Source: a virus (Duplodnaviria; Heunggongvirae; Uroviricota; Caudoviricetes). From it: DNA of 64,000 nucleotides. A model generated the notes under the pieces. It was not told the origin of the DNA and ran no database searches. It was given only the letters and a program-made list of their open reading frames with translations. The translations under genes and the position numbers were made by a program. The stretch is from IMG/VR virus record IMGVR_UViG_3300025678_000001; one strand, given 5' to 3'. This document shows, piece by piece, positions 9,016 to 56,257 of the stretch. Numbering within the stretch: position 1 is the stretch's first letter; each line of letters opens with the position of its first letter.

Positions 9016-9294
9016 TTAAACCAGGGGAAGCAGTGTGATATTCAGCTTGTCAGCTACATACTGATAGGCTGATTCATTACTGTTATCCCAGGCTACATAG
9101 TCATTACCTTCCATCAGAACATTACCTTCTGCAATAGAGGTTTCAACAAAAGGTTCTGTAACTGCTACGTTATAGAGTTGGTAGTAAAACTTAGCATAAC
9201 TTTTAAGATCGTCATACACACTTACTACACTGATCTTGCTGATGGTCATTAACCGACCATTGTACCATACATCAAAAGGTTGGATTGTTCTCAT
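9016..9294 (-). CDS. hypothetical protein (fibre-associated)
   Basis: 92-aa ORF between the two fibre genes. Confidence 0.45.
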   Translation of the reverse strand: MRTIQPFDVWYNGRLMTISKISVVSVYDDLKSYAKFYYQLYNVAVTEPFVETSIAEGNVLMEGNDYVAWDNSNESAYQYVADKLNITLLPLV

Positions 9295-9299
9295 AGTTG

Positions 9300-12200
9300 T
9301 TAATATTCTGTTTCGATATAAATACGGTTAATACCAAGCTGGATCTGGGTAGCTACTGTTAAAGCAGCATTACTAGCCAGAACACCAGCTGTAAGTAAGG
9401 TTGTGTTTGTGGGAAGGTTGGTTGTAGCAGTACCAGAAGCCTCGGTACCAGTTGTGATATCCACAATTCTCCAAGTATATTGTGAACTGTTTGGAGCACA
9501 GTAGATAAATAGATCATATCCTTTTTTGGATGTGATTGTAAAGCCAGTTGAAGCTTTTGTAGCAGCTGTACCTCTTGTAAGGAACGAGATAGCTCCGTTA
9601 TCAGCAGCATCCACACAGAATCCTACAGTATTGTTCAAAGCTGAAGGATCTGCAGATACTACAGTGGTAGCAGAGTGCATGCCAGCAAAGAAACGACCAC
9701 CATTTGTCCATACGTCAAAACCACAACGAGTATAGAAGAAGAAACCACCTTGACCAGCAGCACCACCCCTCATAAACATGGCATCAGTATTTCTTTGACC
9801 AAGTACCTGGTTCGTTGTAGTTACCACATTTGCGTACCTACTTCTCTTTGTGGCAGTATAAACGTTGGTAGTTGTAGGAAGGGCTGACGTAAATGTACCA
9901 GAACCAGCACCAGCTGTACCAATCCACAAACCAGCTGTTGCACCAGTGGTTGTCCACAGTACAATGTTGTTCTGCCATAAAGCAGATTGTAGAGACATGG
10001 CCAGACCAGTATCCCCGAGGATTCTAGCTGTTGCTCTACCAGCAATATACTTAGAGTATTTTACTGTGTTACCAGATGCAGGAACAGAAGGTTCTGTACT
10101 CAGACCTTTGATAAGCATCTGACTATTTGTAGCCAGTAATGATAAGATACCATTTGTGTCATCCCAGGTAAAGTTAGCAGATGCTCCCAGGGTACCGGCA
10201 TTATTATATTGGATCTGGGTATTTGAACCAGCCGGTGAAGCTGTTACAGTAGCCCAAGTATTATCTCCCCTCAGATATGTTGACGCTGAAGGGGTACCTG
10301 TAGCTGAAAGGTTTGAGATACCTACAATGGAGTTAGCCAGAGTTGTAGCAATAGCTGTTGTCCCAGATCCTGTTACAGCTCCGGATAATGTGATTGTTTG
10401 GTTACCTGTGAGATAAGTGTTTGTATCCAGAGCGAACGTACCAGCAGATGTCATCTTCACAAAGGAAGTTGAGACAAAGGACAGACCTGCTAAAGAAGTC
10501 AGGTTTGTGGACAAAGGTTGAGCACCAATAGTGTTATAACTTACTGTAAGAGCACTAGCTCCATTGAAAGTACTACCAGAAGTTCCACCGGTACCACCAT
10601 TGTTGAATGTAATAGCATTTGTTGTTGTACCACCACTACCAGATGGCGCGGCCCATGTTCCATCTGCACGAAGGAAGTTAGAAGTTCCTCCACCAGAAGC
10701 AGGAACCAGACCTTTCAGAGTACTTGTAAAGACATCCAGAAGTGTGGTAGCTTGTGTACCAGTCAATGTTTCCACGTTACCAGTTCCAGCTGTCACCCTA
10801 CCATGGAATGTACCAGTAGCTACCTGGGCCAACATGGCATTGGTTACCTTATTAGCACCAATGGTTGTTGTGATTGCTGTTGTACCAGTACCGGAAATAT
10901 CTCCAGAGAGTGTGATAGATTGGTTGGCTGTCAGATAAGTAGAACTATCCAGGCTACCATCACCTTTTACAAACTGACCAGACGTACCAGAAATATAGCT
11001 TATAACACCGGCTGTGGATTTTACAATACCAGTTCCTGACAAAGGAGCCTGATAGCTAAGAGCAGGAATATCAGTAGCAACCAGTAACCTAAATCCTGGA
11101 GTACCTGCAGAACCATTAGGAGCCGCATATACAAAGTTTGCAGTTTGAGATCCAAATGTGTTGTTTAGATCTGTACCGGTAACAGCTGTGTTACCCGTTA
11201 CGCGACCCTTTGTATCCAGGGTGATCTTTACAAAGTTGGCACCAGTAGATTGAACTACAGTAGCTAAGGTAGTTGTAATAGCGGTTGACCCTGTACCAGA
11301 AACGTCACCAGAAAGAGTGATCGACTGGTTTGCAGTTAGATAGGTTGAGGTATCAAATACCCAGGTATTGGTACCTGTACCAGTGTACTTCAGTAAGCCA
11401 GCACTGGCTCCGAGAGCCGGGAGAGCTACCCCTCTAAGACCTGTAACTGTTATTGCGGGTGTCAGAGATGTAGCACCAGATCCACCAGAAGAAGATACAT
11501 CTCCTGTAGGACTGAATGAGATTGTCTGGTTAGCTGTAAGATAAGTACTCGTGTCTAGAGTCCAGGTATTCAGAGCTGTTTTCTTAGCAAAACCTGTAGT
11601 TCCAGCCAGTGCTGCTATGGCACTAAGATCACCATCAAGCGGTTGATATGTTGTGGCAGCAGTAGCTGAAGTCAGATAAGGACTCAAAGCTGAACTGGTA
11701 ATATATCCAGAGTCATTCGTAAATGAAGATACGTTTGTCGGGGCCCCTGTTAGCTTACTATAGGCCAGGGAAGTAATCCAGGTTGGATCAGCGTACGAAC
11801 CACTTGTCAGAACATCACCAACACTCCAGGAACGGTTGAGAGATAAATCCAGGGTAGTACCGTTAATAGTCAAAGTTCTGGTTGTCTGTACATATCCGGT
11901 AAGGGCTGATGAGGTTATATAACCAGCATCATTTGTAAAACTGGATACGTTTGTGGGTGCTCCAGTCAGTTTACCATAAGCTAATGAAGTGATCCATGCA
12001 GGGTTTGCATAAGATCCAGAAGTATAAACTCCATTTGTTACAGTTCCGGCATTTCCACTAATACTGATGCTCCAGGTACCAGAAGCACCTGTACCGGTCA
12101 GAGAAGGAATATCAGTACCAATAGCCAGACCAAGATTTGTTCTAGCTGCCAGAGCTGTACTTGCACCAGTACCACCATTTACAATACCAAGTTCTCCAGA

Positions 12201-28802: not shown

Positions 28803-28972
28803 AGTCTTAGGTTTTTAGCTGTAAGGGGACGGGTCGAACGTCCACGCAGAGATTCAGTATTGGAACGGCATATACGCTTGCAAGCATTAGTGGTCAACCC
28901 TTACCGTATACCTATTTCTTTATCTGCACCCACGAGACGAGTGGGCGTGTCTGCCAGTTTCACCACCTTACA

Positions 28973-33920: not shown

Positions 33921-34048
33921 TAAACAAAACTCAGCAGTAGTAGTTGTCTTTAGAGTGGACTATTTCTCACTGAGGTAAGTAGATTACTAAGGGGTAATAC
34001 TTAGTAAAATTAATCAGTGTCAGCTTATATACAACTGATTCTTATCAG

Positions 34049-34120
34049 TTTCCTCCCCTGGGTACGATCCAGGAACTGCAGGGCCAAAACCTGCCGTGAT
34101 ACCAGTTTCACCAAAAGGAA
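34049..34120 (-). tRNA. tRNA-Gln(UUG)
   Basis: T-arm CCTGG/ATCGTAC/CCAGG, anticodon arm GCAGG-UUUUGGC-CCUGC, acceptor pairs with two GU. Confidence 0.6.
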
Positions 34121-34126
34121 ATAGTG

Positions 34127-34198
34127 GGTGTAAGGACGGTACCGACCCGTCTTCCCCAGGTCCACAACCTGGTGCATCACCTTAATGCTTCAAACACC
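34127..34198 (-). tRNA. tRNA-His(GUG)-like, encoded G-1/C73, two U-U mismatches in the acceptor stem
   Basis: anticodon arm CCAGG-UUGUGGA-CCUGG; T-arm GACGG/GTCGGTA/CCGTC; extra 5-prime G opposite C73. Confidence 0.45.
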
Positions 34199-34203
34199 AT
34201 AAG

Positions 34204-34275
34204 AGCCTTCTACCGGAACCGACCCGGTAAGTCCTGTTTACAAGACAGGCAGTTTTCCAGTTAGCTTAAGAAGGC
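34204..34275 (-). tRNA. tRNA-Thr(UGU)
   Basis: perfect 7-bp acceptor (GCCTTCT/AGAAGGC), T-arm ACCGG/GTCGGTT/CCGGT, anticodon loop CTTGTAA. Confidence 0.65.
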
Positions 34276-34280
34276 CTGTG

Positions 34281-34353
34281 TGGTACAGAGTGGTTACGAT
34301 CCACTTCCCCCGGTTTTTCAGACCGGTGCTTCTACCAAGTTAGCTTCTGCACC
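34281..34353 (-). tRNA. tRNA-Phe(GAA)
   Basis: T-arm AGTGG/ATCGTAA/CCACT, anticodon arm CCGGT-CTGAAAA-ACCGG, acceptor with one GU. Confidence 0.65.
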
Positions 34354-34428
34354 AAGTAGGACTTTGTCAAAGCCGGCCACTCCTGCACAAAGAGGAGACC
34401 AGCTTGATCAGGTGTCCTGAAACCTTTG

Positions 34429-34501
34429 AGGTGGGTGGGAAACTCGAAGCCCCGTATGACTGTTTTGCGGACAGTTGCCTTACCATCTTGGCGAACCCAC
34501 C
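34429..34501 (-). tRNA. tRNA-Cys(GCA)-like (C33, weak T-stem)
   Basis: acceptor GGTGGGT/ACCCACC, D-arm GCC-AAGATGGTAA-GGC, anticodon loop CCGCAAA, T-loop TTCGAGT. Confidence 0.4.
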
Positions 34502-34507
34502 ATGTTG

Positions 34508-34579
34508 TCTAGCTGATCTGGATCGAACAGACGTAATCTTGCTCCCAAAGCAAGTGCCTTACCGCTAGGCTACAGCTAG
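34508..34579 (-). tRNA. tRNA-Pro(UGG)
   Basis: acceptor CTAGCTG/CAGCTAG, D-arm GCC-TAGCGGTAA-GGC, anticodon arm CTTGC-TTTGGGA-GCAAG, T-loop TTCGATC. Confidence 0.7.
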
Positions 34580-34617
34580 AAAAAGAAAACCCCCAAACCG
34601 TTTTACCAGTCTGGGGG
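34578..34617 (-). terminator. rho-independent terminator (minus strand)
   Basis: CCCCCA...TGGGGG hairpin followed on the minus strand by TTTTCTTTTTCT. Confidence 0.5.
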
Positions 34618-34757
34618 TTAGTATTTTGATTTTGTACTTCTTAACTCGTTGCTATGATCACTGTACATACACCAACACAACTACCCCCGCAGACCGGACA
34701 AGGTTGCGTAAACTGGGTAAACTGTGTATGGGTAGTAATCTTCTTCATCTACAATAC

Positions 34758-34789
34758 AAAGATACTACTTTTTGTAGAACTACCAAAAT
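34758..34789 (-). promoter_or_regulatory. minus-strand promoter (-33 TTTTG, N19, -7 TATCTTTG) overlapping the TTGTAGAAC box
   Basis: reverse complement of caaagata (34758-65) and caaaa (34785-89); ~130 nt upstream of the 34578-34617 terminator. Confidence 0.45.
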
Positions 34790-34797
34790 CTTTTTGC

Positions 34798-34870
34798 ACG
34801 GGCCCAGGGAAACGATCCCTGTCCATCCGAGGTTTTGGAGACCTGGTGCATACCATTATGCTGGCCCATG
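34798..34870 (-). tRNA. tRNA-Trp(CCA)-like
   Basis: T-arm CAGGG/ATCGTTT/CCCTG; anticodon loop CTCCAAA with a 27-43 mismatch; acceptor with GU. Confidence 0.45.
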
Positions 34871-34875
34871 TATGT

Positions 34876-34959
34876 GGGAAGTGAGTGAGTCGAACACCCC
34901 GAGTCCGTAGACAGCTGGTTTACAATCAGCCCCGCTACCACTTACGGTATAACTTCCCC
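34876..34959 (-). tRNA. tRNA-Tyr(GUA), class II (long variable arm)
   Basis: acceptor GGGAAGT/ACTTCCC, anticodon loop TTGTAAA, T-arm GGGTG/TTCGACT/CACTC, 84 nt. Confidence 0.55.
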
Positions 34960-35040
34960 TATTTCGCATATCCAGTCAGTAGTCTTTCCGTCAAAAGCTA
35001 TCAACCAGAGTATGCCGTTCATATTAACGATGTACATGCA

Positions 35041-35123
35041 GAGAGCAGAGTAGTCGAAACCCACCCCGGTTAAGGAGCCCACTGTTTAGCAAACAGGTCT
35101 GACCACCTAGTCAGTTTACTCTC
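35041..35123 (-). tRNA. tRNA-Ser(GCU)-like, class II, T-arm poorly formed
   Basis: anticodon arm CCTGT-TTGCTAA-ACAGT, D-arm CTGAC-TAGGTG-GTCAG, acceptor GAGAGTA/TGCTCTC. Confidence 0.4.
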
Positions 35124-35129
35124 TAGATG

Positions 35130-35221
35130 CGGAAGGCAGAGGAACCGACCCCCATGCCCGTGTAAGGGGCAGCCTAGTTTTCAAGACTAGTCGCCACTCC
35201 AATGTAGCTGCATTACCTTCC
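35130..35221 (-). tRNA. tRNA-Ser(UGA), class II
   Basis: acceptor GGAAGGT/GCCTTCC, anticodon arm CTAGT-CTTGAAA-ACTAG, variable-arm hairpin, T-loop GTCGGTT. Confidence 0.6.
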
Positions 35222-35226
35222 ATGTA

Positions 35227-35313
35227 GTACCGGTGGAGGGGGATGATCCCACACGATCCTTTCGGATCACAAGATTTTAAGTCTTGCGTGTCTGCCTATT
35301 TCACCACACCGGC
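35227..35313 (-). tRNA. tRNA-Leu(UAA), class II
   Basis: anticodon arm CAAGA-CTTAAAA-TCTTG, variable-arm hairpin GATCC-GAAA-GGATC, acceptor GCCGGTG/CACCGGT. Confidence 0.55.
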
Positions 35314-35394
35314 AGTTGTCTGGACTCTCACCATAGCAGTCAGGGATTTCAGGTCCCCAGGTGTGCATTCAATTCGTCCCACCTTCTGACATCG

Positions 35395-35477
35395 TACCTC
35401 TGACAGGCCTCGAACCTGCACCCGTTTCCGGACTAGATCCTAAGTCTAGCGTGTCTCCCAAGTTTCACCACAGAGGT
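35395..35477 (-). tRNA. tRNA-Leu(UAG), class II
   Basis: perfect acceptor ACCTCTG/CAGAGGT, T-arm GCAGG/TTCGAGG/CCTGT, anticodon arm CTAGA-CTTAGGA-TCTAG. Confidence 0.65.
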
Positions 35478-35518
35478 ATAAAAACCAAAATCCCGACCAG
35501 GAAAACCTAATCGGGATT
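35478..35518 (-). terminator. rho-independent terminator (minus strand)
   Basis: 8-bp stem AATCCCGA/TCGGGATT followed on the minus strand by TTTGGTTTTTAT. Confidence 0.5.
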
Positions 35519-35673
35519 GGAAACTTTTTCAGTAACTACATACCTCACCCGATTGGTTTATGCAACCAATACAGACTGAGTGAGGATAGAGTAAACTGCT
35601 TCATAAAAATTTGGTGGATGGTCACCCCACTTGTTTTAATCTAAACAAGAAATCATCGGTCGGTTACGTTAAC

Positions 35674-35735
35674 TTCTCAGCTTGAACGCCTGTCGTGTGA
35701 CCTTTCAGCTTTCACGCCTGTTAAGAGGCTTTACC
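35674..35735. repeat. imperfect direct repeat CAGCTT(G/T)(A/C)ACGCCTGT x2, spaced 29 nt
   Basis: cagcttgaacgcctgt and cagctttcacgcctgt inside the short promoter-to-terminator unit. Confidence 0.35.
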
Positions 35736-35748
35736 GACCATCACAATA

Positions 35749-35780
35749 CAAATATACAACTCTTTTGGAGTTCTACAAAA
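35749..35780 (-). promoter_or_regulatory. minus-strand promoter (-33 TTTTG in TTTTGTAGAAC, N19, -7 TATATTTG)
   Basis: reverse complement of caaatata (35749-56) and caaaa (35776-80); transcribes a ~230-nt ORF-free segment ending at the 35478-35518 terminator. Confidence 0.45.
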
Positions 35781-35788
35781 TATTTTTG

Positions 35789-35864
35789 TGGAGACTCTGG
35801 AACTTGAATCCAGCTGATATCCTGCTTGCAAGGCAGGTGTCCACTCCTGGCAGACCCAGTCCCC
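35789..35864 (-). tRNA. tRNA-Ala(UGC)
   Basis: T-arm CTGGA/TTCAAGT/TCCAG, anticodon arm CCTGC-CTTGCAA-GCAGG. Confidence 0.6.
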
Positions 35865-35870
35865 ATGCTG

Positions 35871-35942
35871 TACTCTCGGGTGGTAACGATCCACCTACCT
35901 TCTCCGTATCAGGGAGCTACTCTACCATTGAGCTACGAGAGT
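35871..35942 (-). tRNA. tRNA-Ile(GAU)
   Basis: perfect acceptor ACTCTCG/CGAGAGT, T-arm GGTGG/ATCGTTA/CCACC, anticodon loop CTGATAC. Confidence 0.65.
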
Positions 35943-35947
35943 ATAAG

Positions 35948-36020
35948 TTGATCCGGGTGGGTACGATCCACCGACCTTGACGTTATGAGCGTCCTGCTAC
36001 TACCACTGAGCTACGGATCA
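35948..36020 (-). tRNA. tRNA-Met(CAU)
   Basis: perfect acceptor TGATCCG/CGGATCA, T-arm GGTGG/ATCGTAC/CCACC, anticodon loop CTCATAA. Confidence 0.6.
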
Positions 36021-36025
36021 GTATG

Positions 36026-36099
36026 CGGTCCGTACCGGGATCAAACCGGTCATCTCTGGCGTGACAAGCCAGCGTCTTCATCGTGCAGACCCACGGACC
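36026..36099 (-). tRNA. tRNA-Asp(GUC)
   Basis: perfect acceptor GGTCCGT/ACGGACC, T-arm ACCGG/TTTGATC/CCGGT, anticodon arm CTGGC-TTGTCAC-GCCAG. Confidence 0.7.
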
Positions 36100-36105
36100 A
36101 AATAG

Positions 36106-36180
36106 TACCCCCACCGGAGATCGAATCCGGTTCTTCACCGTGAAAGGGTGGCGTCCTGTACCTTCTAGACGATAGGGGCA
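36106..36180 (-). tRNA. tRNA-Glu(UUC)
   Basis: the sequence GCCCCTATCGTCTAGAAGGTACAGGACGCCACCCTTTCACGGTG...TTCGATC... closely parallels canonical bacterial tRNA-Glu. Confidence 0.65.
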
Positions 36181-36259
36181 AATTGGAGGCTTAGGACTCC
36201 ATCATCCTCCTTGAGATCCCGGCGTCCTTCTACTTTTTATAGTACGGATCTCTTTTACG

Positions 36260-36331
36260 AGCAGCATCTCGGGGTCGATCCGAGTTCTCCGGTTTGGAAG
36301 ACCGGCACATCAGCCCTAATGCTTATGCTGC
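36260..36331 (-). tRNA. tRNA-Gly(UCC)
   Basis: perfect acceptor GCAGCAT/ATGCTGC, T-arm CTCGG/ATCGACC/CCGAG, anticodon arm CCGGT-CTTCCAA-ACCGG. Confidence 0.7.
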
Positions 36332-36445
36332 ATGAAAGAACAGAGCTCCAGGGGAATCTCACCCGTCTGTCCGGAACAGACCTCACTGCCTTTTACTATG
36401 TACGGTATTTACTCGTACACAACAGCTACCTGAAGATGATCTTGG

Positions 36446-36515
36446 TTGCGGGGCCGGGATTTGAACCCGGGAAACACGGCTTATGAGACCGGTCGGCCAC
36501 CTGGCTCCCCACAAT
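36446..36515 (-). tRNA. tRNA-like gene, anticodon arm unresolved
   Basis: canonical T-arm CCGGG/TTCAAAT/CCCGG and acceptor pairing TGTGGGG/CCCCGCA, but the interior is 2 nt short of a standard cloverleaf. Confidence 0.3.
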
Positions 36516-36522
36516 AAAACTG

Positions 36523-36595
36523 CGGACTCTCCGGGGAACGATCCTGGAACCTTCACCTTAACAGGGTGCCGCTCTACCAGTTGAGCTAAGAGTCC
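36523..36595 (-). tRNA. tRNA-Asn(GUU)
   Basis: perfect acceptor GGACTCT/AGAGTCC, D-arm AGCTCAACTGGTAGAGCG, anticodon loop CTGTTAA, T-loop ATCGTTC. Confidence 0.7.
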
Positions 36596-36596
36596 G

Positions 36597-36668
36597 TATA
36601 CTTAGAAGGATTCCAACCTTCACTTTCAGTTTAGAAGACTGACGTGCTAAGCATTACACCATAAGTAC
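36597..36668 (-). tRNA. tRNA-Arg(UCU)
   Basis: T-arm GAAGG/TTGGAAT/CCTTC, anticodon arm TCAGT-CTTCTAA-ACTGA. Confidence 0.65.
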
Positions 36669-36676
36669 ATATCTGG

Positions 36677-36747
36677 AAGACCCGGAGGTAGTCGAAACCC
36701 CATCATCACGTTCGTAGCGTGATATCCTTCCATTGAACGACGGGTCC
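36677..36747 (-). tRNA. tRNA-Arg(ACG)
   Basis: acceptor GGACCCG/CGGGTCT, T-arm GGGGT/TTCGACT/ACCTC, anticodon arm TCACG-CTACGAA-CGTGA. Confidence 0.65.
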
Positions 36748-36802
36748 TTGTTAAGACCGTCTTCGGTAATATGTACTGTAGTGTGTCATGTCTTCTGTCT
36801 GG

Positions 36803-36876
36803 TAGCTCCTATCCGGGTCGAACGGATGCATTCTCGGTATGTAACACCGAAGCTCTACCACCTGAGCTAAGGAGCT
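36803..36876 (-). tRNA. tRNA-Val(UAC)
   Basis: perfect acceptor AGCTCCT/AGGAGCT, D-arm TAGCTCAGGTGGTAGAGCT, T-arm ATCCG/TTCGACC/CGGAT, anticodon loop GTTACAT. Confidence 0.7.
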
Positions 36877-36882
36877 ATTTGA

Positions 36883-36932
36883 AGCTCATTATTGAGCTTG
36901 AATGAGCTGAATATTGAGCTTAATCGGCTCAT
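36883..36932. promoter_or_regulatory. palindromic operator AGCTCA-N4-TGAGCT plus three phased TGAGCT half-sites
   Basis: AGCTCATTATTGAGCT at 36883-98; TGAGCT again at 36903, 36915; GGCTCA at 36927; lies between tRNA-Val and tRNA-Lys. Confidence 0.4.
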
Positions 36933-36940
36933 ATATCTTG

Positions 36941-37012
36941 TTCCCCCGTCCGGTAACGATCCGGACCCCACGGATTAAAAGTCCGTTGCCTACACCTGTT
37001 TGCTACGAGGGA
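36941..37012 (-). tRNA. tRNA-Lys(UUU)
   Basis: T-arm TCCGG/ATCGTTA/CCGGA, anticodon arm ACGGA-CTTTTAA-TCCGT, acceptor with one GU. Confidence 0.65.
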
Positions 37013-40503: not shown

Positions 40504-41078
40504 TCGTCTTTCCCAATGCACATATTCTCATGTGGTAACATGTCGTACGGCAACGACTATAACAAGTAATAAGGAGTAAGTCACCTCAGATAACATCTCC
40601 TACGACGTGAAGCCACACTGATTAACCTGTTATAGAAACAGGCTACTGTATATGTAATGCAGTGAAATAAAGTAATCAGTCTCTTCAAGAGATGAGAAAA
40701 CAGTTGTAATAAGCTAATACAGGCTGAATAGAGTAAACGTGAAACCTTACGTTACAACTGTTTGTGCAAAGGGATCTCGGCAAGGTGGTGTTAAGCCTTG
40801 TGCGTTCAGTGTGGTATATCCATACTGAGGTCACCAGATCTTATTGTTATGTGGGTATTTAACCTTAAGAAATACCAGTTTGACCATATCGCATCTACCA
40901 TGAGAAAACATGGTCGTGGTTATGAATGGCATACTGGTGATTACACTGCTATCAAGCTTAAGATAGAAGATTGGAAAGAGTTCTTTCCACACTATCTCAA
41001 CTCCTCTGTGGGAGTATAAACCGTGTTAAGCACAGAGCGTTCACATAGTTAAAGTATACACTTTAAGGCTAAGCTGTA

Positions 41079-50013: not shown

Positions 50014-50086
50014 CAGGTGTACTCAGGGAGTAGCTCAGATAGGAGAGCATCCGGGCGACCCCCGGAAGGTCGGTGGTGCAAGTCCA
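50014..50086 (+). ncRNA. degenerate tRNA-like element
   Basis: canonical D-arm TAGCTCAGATAGGAGAGCA and T-stem GGTGG/CCACC, acceptor 6 of 7 pairs, but anticodon loop GCGACCC (C33) and T-loop TGCAAGT are non-canonical. Confidence 0.3.
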
Positions 50087-50113
50087 CCCTTCCTAACTAA
50101 ACCAAAGAAACCT

Positions 50114-54336: not shown

Positions 54337-54689
54337 TCAAACCGGTTGGGTAGCACAAACACAGAAACTGTCCAAATGTTGTACAACTCTGTATGAACAT
54401 CTGAGCCAAGTAGTGCGTCGGTGTCCAAAGCCGAAGATGATGGGGTAGGTCCATCCCTGGCCACACGTTCCGAAACATGACAACGGATAGTACCATCCTG
54501 TATGATGAGAAGCAGAGTGATGTCTGTATGGATAAGTGACAACTTCTTTGAAAGTTGTGGGCCGACAGCCTGAGATCTGTGATCTTAAAAGTCTAGTCCT
54601 AACTCACCTAGAAAAAACAGCAGGGAGGGGATAACCCTCTGTGAGGACAGCCACGGTACTTGCAAGCTGGATAAATTAGAGTACCACAC

Positions 54690-54810
54690 GGGCTTATTAG
54701 TTCAGTGGCAGAACACCGGGTCCGATGAGGCGGCTTTTATTAAGGTTATTGCAACCCCAAAAGAAAACCGAAACCCCGGGAGGTCACCAGTTCAAATCTG
54801 GTATAAGCCC
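54690..54810 (+). tRNA. tRNA-like gene with a ~47-nt structured insertion replacing the anticodon loop
   Basis: G(-1)+GGCTTAT acceptor pairing with ATAAGCC+C73, D-arm TA-GTTC-AGTGGCA-GAAC, T-arm ACCAG-TTCAAAT-CTGGT, anticodon stem CCGGG/CCCGG flanking 54 nt containing its own hairpin. Confidence 0.45.
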
Positions 54811-54844: not shown

Positions 54845-55084
54845 ATGAAAGTCTTATTCGGAAAGATGCCCAGTAAGTTGATCGTACGTTTGAAGATAGC
54901 ACTGGGTATCTTTACTATCTGTACGATCTTTGGGATTATAGGGTACTTTGTACCTTCTTCAAAGCCTCCCTTACTTAGAACATTTGCTGCGTTCATCCTA
55001 CCACTTGCTTGTCTAACAGCAGTTCTGATCTTGTTTAAGATCATGGAATTTATCCTGTGGTGTTTTGATTGTAAGCCCAGGTAA
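54845..55084 (+). CDS. small membrane protein (hypothetical)
   Basis: 79-aa ORF with two TM helices, downstream of the tRNA-like gene. Confidence 0.3.
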   Translation: MKVLFGKMPSKLIVRLKIALGIFTICTIFGIIGYFVPSSKPPLLRTFAAFILPLACLTAVLILFKIMEFILWCFDCKPR

Positions 55085-55498
55085 AAATATAGTACAGAGG
55101 AGGTAGGCTTGGAAGTAGCCATAAGGTAGAACCTTACTCTTGGGTTGAGGCTGGCTGAGATCAGATATACATCTAAGAGTCCTTTAAAGAGTTGCAAGTA
55201 GGACCCGTAACTGATTATGTGACGACTAAAAGTGGTAAAACTACAGGAGATATAGTCCTGATGAAAAGAAGTAAGCGTCAATAGGACTGAGTAGCTGGAT
55301 TATTATACACTCCTTAGAGCATTTGGTGTAACAACACACTCTGTACTTTTTTCTTAGCTCCGGGGATCACACCATCCGTCAATCTGGTTGTGTTATGTTT
55401 AAGCAAGCTTAAAAGAGCAGCTCCATTGGTCTGTTTACTGTCTGGTGAGCTCAGACTTTAAAAAGTAGAATGGGTCAACTGGAAAAGCTGCAGAAATA

Positions 55499-55530
55499 TT
55501 TGTAGAACTCCTAAAAAAGTTCTATATTTG
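55499..55530 (+). promoter_or_regulatory. Bacteroidetes-type promoter (-33 TTTG within TTTGTAGAAC, N20, -7 TATATTTG) driving the tmRNA-like gene
   Basis: TTTG at 55499-55502, TATATTTG at 55523-55530, RNA 5-prime GGGCCCG at 55540. Confidence 0.5.
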
Positions 55531-55539
55531 TTCTACACT

Positions 55540-56195
55540 GGGCCCGTCTGGTTTAGACAGCAGAGTGAGTGGTAACTACACATGTGGACAAAGTAAGAAC
55601 GTCCTAAAATACTTACAAAACAATAAACGCTATGACTAAGTCTGAGCGTGTAGCAGAAGGTGAAGCTATCCTGGCTTCTATCTTCGTTGATGAGGCTGTA
55701 GCAGCCTGATCCTACGGGGGATCTATCCCTGGCAACAGAAAATAGAACTGAAGTCTTATATGAGCATACAGAACTAAACGGGACATATGCCGTAAAGTAA
55801 TCCGTGTATAAGACGTAGAGTGGCTCCCTTAATAGTCTAGGCTGACCTAGAGCATTCTAACTGAAGCATGGTATACAGGGGGTGAAGCCGTGCAACCCAG
55901 CTATGGGTTACCAGAATGATACAGTTACAGATGAGCGTAGTATGTGAAAACATTCAAATAAGTATCTGTTATAAAAAGTATAGTGACTGAATGTTTGGTA
56001 GTAATAGCATGTTTTCCTGGTTATGTCAAAACTAGGTGGTGGAGTAGGCGGTCTTGATTGGACGCCCCCAAACTACGGTGCAGATGAAGTGACGCAGTCT
56101 TTTAGACTTGATCCAAAGTAATCAGTACTAAACATGTAATACGTTGTAGTTATTGACTTCTTTGTTGGACACGAGTTCGATTCTCGTCGGGTCCA
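55540..56195 (+). ncRNA. ssrA: candidate phage-encoded tmRNA (ssrA-like), unusually long (~650 nt)
   Basis: 5-prime GGGCCCG-UCUGGUUUAGAC parallels E. coli tmRNA 5-prime GGGGCUG-AUUCUGGAUUCGAC; 3-prime GGAC-ACGAG-UUCGAUU-CUCGU-CGGGUCC-A parallels GGAC-GCGGG-UUCAACU-CCCGC-CAGCUCC-A; the 5-prime and 3-prime 7-mers pair (one GU); internal frame ...ASIFVDEAVAA followed by UGA at 55707; consensus promoter upstream and rho-independent terminator downstream; no ORF of 60 aa or more. Confidence 0.45.
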
Positions 56196-56221
56196 CTCTC
56201 TCAAAGCTAAGCAATCGTTAG

Positions 56222-56257
56222 ACCCCCGGTGGTTTCTACTACTGGGGTTTTCTTTTT
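56222..56257 (+). terminator. rho-independent terminator after the tmRNA-like gene
   Basis: 7-bp stem CCCCGGT/ACTGGGG (one GU) with a 10-nt loop, then TTTTCTTTTT. Confidence 0.6.

What the first reader, a model, noticed from the sequence alone, without database searches (positions are those of the whole stretch)
54690..54810. tRNA gene whose anticodon loop is replaced by a ~47-nt structured insertion
The acceptor stem is perfect and carries a G(-1) opposite C73, which resembles bacterial tRNA-His. The D-arm (TA-GTTC-AGTGGCA-GAAC) and the T-arm (ACCAG-TTCAAAT-CTGGT) are canonical. The anticodon stem CCGGG/CCCGG, however, encloses 54 nt instead of 7. That insert carries its own hairpin (CTTTT...AAAAG around GGTT-ATTGCA-AACC). 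It is too small for a group I intron and sits at the position where tRNA introns normally occur. It could be a small intron of an unusual class, an insertion-disrupted pseudogene, or a tRNA-like RNA with a new function.
Basis: seen in the sequence. Interest (0 to 1): 0.65.

Follow-up and report, generated by a model that had tools for sequence, protein, structure and literature searches.

The report
tRNA-shaped phage gene lacking an anticodon
A crAss-like phage carries a gene that folds like a histidine tRNA but has a 54-base extension where the anticodon loop should be, so it cannot read codons and is more likely a tRNA mimic (or a dead gene copy) than a tRNA with a removable intron.

Summary
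Window 54690-54810 (+) scores 46 bits on the Rfam tRNA model. It has intact acceptor, D, anticodon-stem and T arms and a His-type G-1:C73 end, but 54 nt sit where the 7-nt anticodon loop belongs. It is identical in independent assemblies, so it is not an artefact.

It is very unlikely to be a spliced tRNA. There is no group I hit and no bulge-helix-bulge motif. The insert has no GUG, and every single excision leaves C33. A canonical tRNA-His (34126-34198, missed by ARAGORN and Rfam) already completes a 20-amino-acid tRNA cluster.

The insert holds a hammerhead-like core (CCGAUGA...GAAA), but only two helices meet there, no hammerhead model scores, and the three-helix alternative fold costs about 10 kcal/mol. 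The arm is no more stable than shuffled sequence.

No homologue exists in about 1.8 Mb of related phage DNA or in pattern scans of the viral, metagenome and genome collections, and the phage population is clonal. Covariation therefore cannot be tested.

Context favours a non-decoding tRNA-like RNA:
- A second anticodon-less cloverleaf with the same anticodon stem lies at 50023-50097.
- Related crAss-like phages carry tRNA frames with conserved ends and unalignable middles.
- The element replaces the terminator U-run of a conserved upstream RNA.

A decaying gene copy cannot be excluded.

The parts
54690..54690 (+). G-1, opposite C73. This gives an 8-bp, His-type acceptor end.
   Evidence: Sequence. 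The phage's own canonical tRNA-His at 34126-34198 also has G-1:C73.
54691..54715 (+). Acceptor 5' strand GGCUUAU, U8 A9, D arm GUUC-AGUGGCA-GAAC, and A26.
   Evidence: Rfam tRNA alignment; constrained fold.
54716..54720 (+). Anticodon-stem 5' strand CCGGG.
   Evidence: The same stem sequence occurs in the 50023-50097 element.
54721..54774 (+). 54-nt sequence in place of the 7-nt anticodon loop. It forms a weak, irregular hairpin: GG/CC 54729-30 with 54768-69, CUUUU/AAAAG 54734-38 with 54759-63, GGUU/AACC 54744-47 with 54753-56, and loop AUUGC 54748-52.
   Evidence: z = +0.33 against shuffles. It has no GUG and no possible U33 loop. There is no other copy in the window or in deposited phages.
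54722..54728 (+). Hammerhead-like 5' core CCGAUGA (consensus CUGAUGA, with U4 changed to C).
   Evidence: The motif with its closing pairs occurs once in the window, against 0.27 expected per 64 kb on both strands. No hammerhead model scores.
54770..54773 (+). Hammerhead-like 3' core GAAA, directly after the CC that pairs with the GG following GAUGA.
54775..54785 (+). Anticodon-stem 3' strand CCCGG and the 6-nt variable region GAGGUC.
54786..54810 (+). T arm ACCAG-UUCAAAU-CUGGU, acceptor 3' strand AUAAGCC, and discriminator C73. CCA is not encoded (the next bases are CUA).
54465..54686 (+). Conserved structured RNA immediately upstream. Its terminal hairpin is followed by a U-run in the relatives L162, L142 and L144, but here it is followed by the tRNA-like gene.
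   Evidence: nhmmer E = 1e-14 to 1e-17; alignments; 20 of 45 predicted pairs with compensatory changes.
50023..50097 (+). Second anticodon-less cloverleaf in the same gene array. Its anticodon stem (U)CCGGG/CCCGG(A) and AGGUC variable loop are identical to those of the main element. The loop is only CGACC, and the T loop is UGCAAGU.
   Evidence: Own covariance model R1, 31.1 bits; fold.

Best explanation
The element is a tRNA-derived gene that cannot decode: a tRNA-like RNA with a histidine-type acceptor end.

**Proposed mechanism (all steps inferred, none measured):**
1. It has no promoter of its own. It is transcribed by read-through from the conserved upstream RNA, whose terminator U-run it replaces.
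2. Host RNase P recognises the intact acceptor/T-arm/D-arm 'elbow' and cuts 5' of G-1, as for tRNA-His. The 3' side is trimmed and CCA is added.
3. This processing releases three products: the upstream RNA with a defined 3' end; a stable tRNA-shaped RNA of about 120 nt; and a downstream ORF79 message with a short A-rich leader.
4. Because G-1:C73 is the main HisRS identity set, the RNA may be chargeable with histidine. With a 54-nt arm in place of the anticodon loop it cannot take part in decoding.
5. The arm is a variable 'payload' or is simply tolerated. Its hammerhead-like internal loop is most likely a local motif, not a working ribozyme.

**Shown:** the anatomy, the lack of any restorable anticodon, the genomic context, and the existence of similar non-decoding tRNA frames in this phage and its relatives.
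For: - **Strong tRNA frame:** 46.2 bits, all four stems perfect, tertiary positions present.
- **No decoding loop obtainable:** no GUG, and C33 in all single-excision loops.
- **Not needed for decoding:** the cluster already covers all 20 amino acids, including a canonical tRNA-His with G-1:C73.
- **Separate origin:** the body is textbook-bacterial and is not a paralogue of the phage's divergent cluster tRNAs.
- **A second example in the same phage:** an intact cloverleaf with the same anticodon stem but a 5-nt loop lies 4.6 kb upstream in the same co-directional gene array, again just before an ORF start.
- **Frame conserved, middle free, in relatives:** related crAss-like phages carry tRNA frames whose first ~26 and last ~24 nt are almost invariant while the 35-90-nt middle is unalignable. 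This indicates selection on the frame, not on an anticodon.
- **Expanded tRNA-like RNAs are maintained in this lineage:** another expanded family (window 28819-28972) shows compensatory changes at 18 of 25 pairs across 18 phages.
- **Transcription context:** the upstream RNA's hairpin lacks the U-run seen in relatives. No terminator-like site lies between it and ORF79, and no Bacteroidota-type promoter lies upstream of the element.
Against: - No homologue of this element was found, so neither conservation nor covariation supports function. Searches: 0 hits in IMG/VR relatives, metagenome and genome pattern scans, and covariance-model search R1 of ~1.8 Mb.
- The phage population is clonal and the nearest relative is 65% identical in protein.
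- The extended arm is not more stable than chance.
- There are no expression data.
- The support from other tRNA-like genes is by analogy; they are not homologous to this one.
- G-1 with C73 could be coincidental (roughly 1% by my estimate).
- A tRNA placed in an operon would be processed whether or not it has a further role.
Confidence: 0.45

Rival explanations
1. It is a dead or decaying gene copy. An acquired bacterial-type tRNA gene, possibly a tRNA-His, lost its anticodon loop to a replacement or insertion event and now has no function. It looks intact only because the event is recent.
For: - The element is confined to one clonal phage species, with no homologue anywhere searched.
- The arm is no more stable than shuffled sequence.
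- It has no promoter of its own.
- The phage has a working tRNA-His elsewhere, so nothing would select against the loss.
- A CCGA repeat at both ends of the insert (54722-25 and 54768-71) could be a small target duplication.
Against: - All 21 stem pairs plus G-1:C73 and the tertiary positions are intact.
- No remnant of a 7-nt loop or anticodon flanks the insert. A simple insertion is therefore not enough; a replacement is required.
- A second anticodon-less cloverleaf with the same anticodon stem exists in the same phage.
- Non-decoding tRNA frames are conserved in relatives.
- The insert has no other copies that would mark a mobile element.
Confidence: 0.27
2. It is an intron-containing tRNA. 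The 47-54-nt insert is removed by an unknown mechanism of the kind proposed for the 'enigmatic introns' of Lak megaphage tRNAs, giving a functional tRNA.
For: - Over-long tRNA genes are recurrent in large phages of Bacteroidota and others.
- They have been reported as predicted introns in Lak phages (preprint 10.1101/356790).
- The insert lies exactly between the two anticodon-stem strands.
- CCGA is repeated at both insert ends.
Against: - At 54 nt it is too small for group I, and it has no RF00028 hit.
- There is no bulge-helix-bulge motif.
- No RNA ligase, kinase, RtcB or splicing endonuclease domain appeared among the 20 largest window proteins tested.
- No GUG is present, and all single excisions leave C33 with anticodons GAA, CAA or CGA, which do not match the His-type acceptor.
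- ARAGORN's intron mode gives only an implausible Cys(gca) with a 3-bp stem.
- A full set of 20 amino acids is already encoded.
Confidence: 0.1
3. It is a hammerhead-type ribozyme carried in a tRNA scaffold. The core CCGAUGA...GAAA with helix II is catalytic. It would cut either in cis, through an alternative fold, after GUC at 54785/54786, or in trans on an RNA complementary to the two arms.
For: - The core order and spacing match the hammerhead consensus except for U4 changed to C.
- The motif with closing G-C pairs occurs once in the window against 0.27 expected per 64 kb, which is about 5e-4 for this 120-nt target.
- GUC triplets lie at both candidate sites, 54720-22 and 54783-85.
- The layout arm-CUGAUGA-helix II-GAAA-arm is that of designed trans-cleaving hammerheads (own knowledge).
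Against: - No Rfam hammerhead family scores, even at E <= 10 in a 391-nt search.
- In the cloverleaf only two helices meet at the core, and helix I has zero length.
- The complete three-helix alternative needs 3-bp helices I and III and is -20.3 kcal/mol, against -30.0 for the cloverleaf and -33.4 for the MFE.
- U4 is altered.
- Helix II is only GG/CC followed by an internal loop.
- Candidate trans targets in the window are at chance level, and the best one is simply the antisense of the 50023 element's identical stem.
- The two arms pair with each other.
Confidence: 0.06

Closest known systems
'Enigmatic introns' in tRNA genes of Lak megaphages of Prevotella (Devoto et al., preprint 10.1101/356790; read)
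   Same: These are over-long tRNA genes in large phages of Bacteroidota. They have short non-group-I inserts in the anticodon region, were detected only because the genes are too long, and have no known removal mechanism.
   Different: In Lak phages tRNAscan (eukaryotic mode) still assigns an isotype and anticodon, with an excision point beside it, and the inserts are conserved across cohorts. Here no anticodon is retained or restorable, the element is confined to one clonal phage, and the phage is crAss-like rather than Lak.
Group I introns in bacterial and phage tRNA anticodon loops (for example cyanobacterial tRNA-Leu; Patescibacteria tRNA-Asn/Asp, PMC13011429, listed)
   Same: The interruption lies between the two strands of the anticodon stem of an otherwise canonical tRNA gene.
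   Different: Group I introns are about 200 nt or longer and have a recognisable catalytic core. This insert is 54 nt with no RF00028 signal. RF00028 does detect a real group I intron in the tmRNA region of relative L144, so the model works in this lineage.
tRNA-like processing elements: plant mitochondrial t-elements (PMC1920247, listed), and the MALAT1 mascRNA and gammaherpesvirus tRNA-like/miRNA units (own knowledge)
   Same: A non-decoding cloverleaf embedded in a longer transcript recruits RNase P/Z and so defines the ends of neighbouring RNAs. Here the element replaces a terminator U-run after a conserved RNA and sits 34 nt before an ORF.
   Different: Processing has not been measured here. 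Those systems are organellar or eukaryotic. None has a His-type G-1:C73 end or a 54-nt anticodon arm.
tmRNA and other aminoacylatable tRNA mimics
   Same: These have a tRNA-like acceptor/T-arm module whose synthetase identity is independent of the anticodon (Ala in tmRNA, His-type here), with the anticodon arm replaced by a long extension. A phage tmRNA gene lies 730 nt downstream.
   Different: This element has no reading frame and no pseudoknots, keeps a full D arm, and is far shorter. It scores only on the tRNA model, not on the tmRNA model.
Engineered tRNA scaffolds and tRNA-embedded hammerheads (tRNA-scaffold recombinant RNA, PMC3401473 listed; tRNA-ribozyme fusions, own knowledge)
   Same: The architecture is the same: a foreign RNA, here with a hammerhead-like core, is grafted onto the anticodon stem of an intact tRNA body, which confers processing and stability.
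   Different: Those are artificial constructs. This element is natural, the core is incomplete, and activity is untested.

Membership tests
tRNA (Rfam RF00005) | Cloverleaf scoring above the curated threshold | tested here: met
   46.2 bits against a gathering score of 29, with the full model 1-71 matched.
tRNA (decoding) | 7-nt anticodon loop with U33 and an anticodon | tested here: not met
   The stem strands enclose 54 nt. All single-excision 7-mers have C33. ARAGORN in default mode does not call it.
Bacterial tRNA-His | G-1 paired with C73 | tested here: met
   54690 G and 54810 C. The phage's canonical tRNA-His has the same feature.
Bacterial tRNA-His | GUG anticodon | tested here: not met
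   The only GUG in the element is in the D loop.
Group I intron in a tRNA | Catalytic core detectable by RF00028; length about 200 nt or more | tested here: not met
   No hit at gathering score, at E <= 2 over the whole window, or at E <= 10 over 391 nt. The insert is 54 nt.
Archaeal/eukaryal-type tRNA intron | Bulge-helix-bulge motif at the exon-intron boundaries | tested here: not met
   A script found no hBHBh' motif. The relaxed matches do not involve the anticodon stem.
Archaeal/eukaryal-type tRNA intron | Splicing endonuclease and ligase available | tested here: inconclusive
   None appeared among the 20 largest window proteins. About 51 kb of the genome and the host were not examined.
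Hammerhead ribozyme | Conserved core CUGANGA ... GAAA flanking helix II | tested here: inconclusive
   CCGAUGA-GG...CC-GAAA is present with U4 changed to C. It is rarer than chance.
Hammerhead ribozyme | Three helices around the core, with the cleavage site 3' of helix III | tested here: not met
   The cloverleaf gives two helices. The three-helix alternative is about 10-13 kcal/mol less stable.
Hammerhead ribozyme | Match to a curated hammerhead covariance model | tested here: not met
   No hammerhead family was listed at E <= 10.
Lak-type phage tRNA 'introns' | Over-long tRNA gene in a large phage of Bacteroidota | tested here: met
   120 nt. The phage is crAss-like, from a Crass_capsid match at E = 1.8e-32, and a neighbouring gene has a T9SS tail domain.
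Lak-type phage tRNA 'introns' | Anticodon retained beside the insert; insert conserved among related phages | tested here: not met
   No anticodon. No homologue in relatives.
Kink-turn / box C/D-like motif | 3-nt bulge, tandem G.A pairs, and a canonical stem directly on the other strand | tested here: not met
   By inspection, the internal loop is 6 nt against 3 nt, so neither register gives a standard K-turn.

The most novel reading that the evidence does not exclude
Environmental crAss-like phages encode a class of anticodon-less tRNA mimics, and this element is a histidine-type member whose arm carries a hammerhead-like core. The mimics would be built on tRNA frames whose synthetase identity does not need an anticodon: the His type here and in L132, G3:U70 in L129, and class-II frames in relatives. 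They would have hypervariable central domains. Possible roles are decoys or inhibitors of host tRNA-targeting defence nucleases, or tRNA-scaffolded regulatory or catalytic RNAs.
Probability: 0.12. Interest if true: 0.85.

Novelty: new variant of a known kind. Interest (0 to 1): 0.5.

Why it matters
If this RNA is made and processed, it would be a natural counterpart of the engineered 'tRNA scaffold'. It would also be one example of a wider and apparently undescribed habit of crAss-like phages: keeping tRNA-shaped genes that cannot decode. Such RNAs could engage RNase P, CCA-adding enzyme, synthetases, EF-Tu or tRNA-targeting defence nucleases without taking part in translation. That bears on how phages manipulate or evade the host's tRNA machinery.

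There is a practical lesson too. Standard tRNA finders miss both these mimics and several genuine but divergent phage tRNAs. Here tRNA-His, tRNA-Tyr and two tRNA-Ser genes were missed by both ARAGORN and Rfam at its curated threshold, and tRNA-Glu, tRNA-Cys and a second tRNA-Met by ARAGORN alone. Phage tRNA inventories and codon-usage arguments built on those tools can therefore be wrong. I made exactly that mistake.

Tried and rejected
**Searches that found nothing useful**
1. A motif-only search for the hammerhead-like core in viral contigs gave 120 or more hits, all chance matches in coding DNA. Core plus T-loop gave 8 chance hits.
2. D-arm...T-arm patterns with a 60-90-nt gap gave 0 hits in the metagenome and genome collections. 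The 5'-half pattern gave one unrelated tRNA and 0 viral hits.
3. No uninterrupted ancestor was found. Normal tRNAs with the same D and T arms are tRNA-Gly.
4. Relatives were fetched through two anchor proteins and through the big protein database. None has the element, by nhmmer, frame scan or covariance model R1.
5. A search for strain variants found that all neighbouring proteins sit in single-member clusters and all copies are 100% identical.
6. BLAST of the insert against deposited phages found nothing. The window has no other copy.

**Interpretations I rejected**
7. K-turn and sarcin-ricin readings of the internal loop were rejected by inspection.
8. The trans-target search for the hammerhead arms was at chance level.
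9. The 50023 element is not preceded by a copy of the upstream RNA.

**My own errors**
10. The query contained an artificial GUG loop, so its tRNA-His hits are biased and were not used.
11. The scan returned zero because of a regex error, corrected.
12. From I concluded that His was the only amino acid without a tRNA and that C73 was unique to the element. One search shows a canonical tRNA-His in the cluster, so both statements were withdrawn.

Full report
**1. The observation**

Window 54690-54810 (+) reads G-1, acceptor GGCUUAU/AUAAGCC, D arm GUUC-AGUGGCA-GAAC, anticodon stem CCGGG/CCCGG, a 6-nt variable region, T arm ACCAG-UUCAAAU-CUGGU and C73. The anticodon stem encloses 54 nt (54721-54774) instead of 7.

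The Rfam tRNA model matches end to end at 46.2 bits (threshold 29) and places the extra bases in the anticodon loop. ARAGORN does not call it.

The same 2.25-kb region is 100% identical in independent JGI and ENA assemblies of a ~135-kb contig, so the element is real.

Two corrections apply. The apical loop is AUUGC.

**2. The genome**

The major capsid protein matches the Crassvirus capsid family (E = 1.8e-32), and CrAss ring proteins lie just outside the window. A neighbouring protein has a T9SS sorting tail, and promoters of the Bacteroidota TTTG...TAnnTTTG type are present. This is an environmental crAss-like phage of a Bacteroidota host.

It has no nucleotide match among deposited phages. 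Its nearest relative in a 5.8-billion-protein collection is 65% identical.

**3. The tRNA inventory, and a correction**

The cluster at 34048-37012 (-) has 17 ARAGORN tRNAs. The following were added:
- Glu, Cys and a second Met
- two Ser
- Tyr

At that stage I inferred that His alone was missing and that this element was the only candidate. That was wrong.

A covariance model built from the element (R1), run without filters, uncovered 34126-34198 (-). This is a canonical tRNA-His with G-1, C73 and the arm CCAGG-UUGUGGA-CCUGG. The standard tools missed it because of two U.U mismatches and an odd T loop.

The cluster therefore serves all 20 amino acids, and the element is an extra. It is not a paralogue of any cluster tRNA. 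Those are divergent (for example T loops GGAUCGUAACC), whereas the element's body is textbook-bacterial. Normal tRNAs with the same D and T arms in genomes are tRNA-Gly, so only G-1:C73 argues for a His-type identity.

**4. Is the insert an intron?**

- **Group I:** 54 nt is too small. RF00028 gives nothing at any threshold, although it does find a real intron in the tmRNA region of relative L144.
- **Archaeal type:** there is no bulge-helix-bulge motif, and no endonuclease or ligase domain among the 20 largest window proteins.
- **Any simple excision:** the six distinct possible 7-nt loops all have C33, with anticodons GAA, CAA or CGA, and there is no GUG.
- **ARAGORN's intron mode** offers only an implausible Cys(gca).

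No remnant of an original loop flanks the insert, so this is a replacement, not a plain insertion.

Short 'enigmatic introns' have been predicted in Lak megaphage tRNAs, but there an anticodon is retained.

**5. The hammerhead-like core**

The insert reads CCGAUGA-GG...CC-GAAAC, which is the hammerhead core order with U4 changed to C. With its closing pairs this motif occurs once in the window against 0.27 expected per 64 kb. Several points count against a real hammerhead:
- No hammerhead model scores, even in a 391-nt search at E <= 10.
- In the cloverleaf only the anticodon stem (reading as helix III, GGGUC) and helix II meet at the core.
- The only complete three-helix fold would cut after GUC at 54785/54786. 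It needs 3-bp helices and is -20.3 kcal/mol, against -30.0 for the cloverleaf and -33.4 for the MFE.
- No trans target stands out.

I treat the core as an unexplained local motif.

**6. Homologues**

None were found:
- Relatives fetched through the AAA ATPase and through a PD-(D/E)XK protein lack the element, by nhmmer, frame scan and covariance model R1 over ~1.8 Mb.
- Pattern scans of the metagenome, genome and viral collections gave nothing relevant.
- The population is clonal.

Covariation therefore cannot be tested for this element.

**7. Context that bears on function**

(a) The ~220 nt directly upstream (54465-54686) is a conserved structured RNA, with 20 of 45 pairs showing compensatory changes. 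In L162, L142 and L144 its terminal hairpin is followed by a U-run. Here the U-run is replaced by the tRNA-like gene.

No terminator-like site lies before ORF79, whose ATG is at 54845. No promoter precedes the element, whereas the tmRNA downstream has its own.

(b) A second anticodon-less cloverleaf lies at 50023-50097 (+). It has the same anticodon stem and variable loop but a 5-nt loop, and it ends 17 nt before the next ATG.

(c) In relatives, tRNA frames with acceptor AGUCAGG keep their first ~26 and last ~24 nt almost invariant, while the 35-90-nt middle is unalignable.

(d) A further expanded family (window 28819-28972) covaries at 18 of 25 pairs across 18 phages.

Together these show that this lineage maintains tRNA-shaped genes that do not decode.

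**8. Verdict**

- **Most likely (0.45):** a non-decoding tRNA-like RNA with a His-type end. It would be co-transcribed with the upstream RNA and excised by the host tRNA-processing enzymes. The 54-nt arm would be a payload or would simply be tolerated.
- **Recently disabled gene copy (0.27):** this cannot be excluded, because nothing about this particular element is conserved.
- **Splicing (0.10) and a working hammerhead (0.06):** both are unlikely.

None of the mechanistic steps has been measured.

Noticed in passing
window 54465-54686 (+); L142 3822-4044, L144 703-927, L135 8811-9024, L162 ~9140-9365, L173 9731-9961: A conserved structured RNA of about 220 nt with no Rfam match. 20 of 45 predicted pairs show compensatory changes, and the single-stranded motifs GAUGAGAA, UCCUAAC and CUAGAAAA-A-UAGCAG are invariant. 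In three relatives (L162, L142, L144) it ends in a hairpin plus U-run. Its function is unknown.
   Followed up: partly
window 50023-50097 (+): A clean cloverleaf with a 6-bp anticodon stem closing only 5 nt (CGACC), a C.A mismatch at the top of the acceptor stem and T loop UGCAAGU. Its anticodon stem and variable loop are identical to those of the main element. Neither ARAGORN nor Rfam calls it, and it ends 17 nt before the ATG of the T9SS-tail protein gene.
   Followed up: partly
window 28819-28972 (-); e.g. L178 12686-12855, L184 4413-4582, L189 5703-5808, L192 3219-3389, L228 5538-5641: A large, apparently undescribed family of 103-171-nt tRNA-like RNAs next to a conserved PD-(D/E)XK protein. 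Shared features are acceptor UGUAGRG/CYCUACA with G73, a class-II D arm, a covarying 5-bp stem closing an invariant loop YUGUCUC, a very long extra arm of variable size, and a normal T arm. 18 of 25 pairs show compensatory changes.
   Followed up: partly
window 34126-34198, 34875-34958, 35041-35123, 35131-35221, 36106-36179, 34429-34501, 36446-36513 (all -): Genuine but divergent tRNAs missed by standard tools. ARAGORN and Rfam at its gathering threshold both missed His(GUG), Tyr(GUA), Ser(GCU) and Ser(UGA). ARAGORN alone missed Glu(UUC), Cys(GCA) and a second Met(CAU). With them the cluster covers all 20 amino acids.
   Followed up: yes
window 55540-56198 (+); L144 6572-7287; L162 12757-13167: A phage tmRNA of 659 nt (Rfam 60.7 bits), much longer than usual and missed by ARAGORN. 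It has its own Bacteroidota-type promoter at ~55495-55530 and a strong terminator at 56224-56247. In relative L144 a group I intron (85.5 bits) sits at the 3' part of the tmRNA region.
   Followed up: partly
L137 4474-4579, L140 4458-4596, L142 3292-3416 and 2668-2754, L144 246-370 and 522-649: Related crAss-like phages carry tRNA frames (acceptor AGUCAGG/CCUGACU, class-II D arm) whose ends are nearly invariant at the nucleotide level. Their central 35-90 nt are unalignable and lack a normal anticodon loop.
   Followed up: partly
L129 2009-2113 (-), L132 1142-1259 (-), L130 1706-1828 (-), L133 517-642 (-): Unrelated phage contigs also hold over-long tRNA-like genes. L129 has a G3:U70 (alanine-type) acceptor. 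L132 has G-1/C73 and an insert containing a second T-arm-like hairpin. L130 and L133 share a similar ~57-nt insert.
   Followed up: no
window 35478-35787 and 34580-34795 (- strand): Two gaps in the tRNA cluster each begin with a Bacteroidota-type promoter-like TTTG...TAnnTTTG and end in a hairpin plus U-run. They are probably unknown small RNAs of about 200-280 nt.
   Followed up: no
window 40787-40835 (+): A weak partial match to the Pistol ribozyme model: 26.9 bits against a gathering score of 34.5, E = 0.78, model positions 24-68 only.
   Followed up: no
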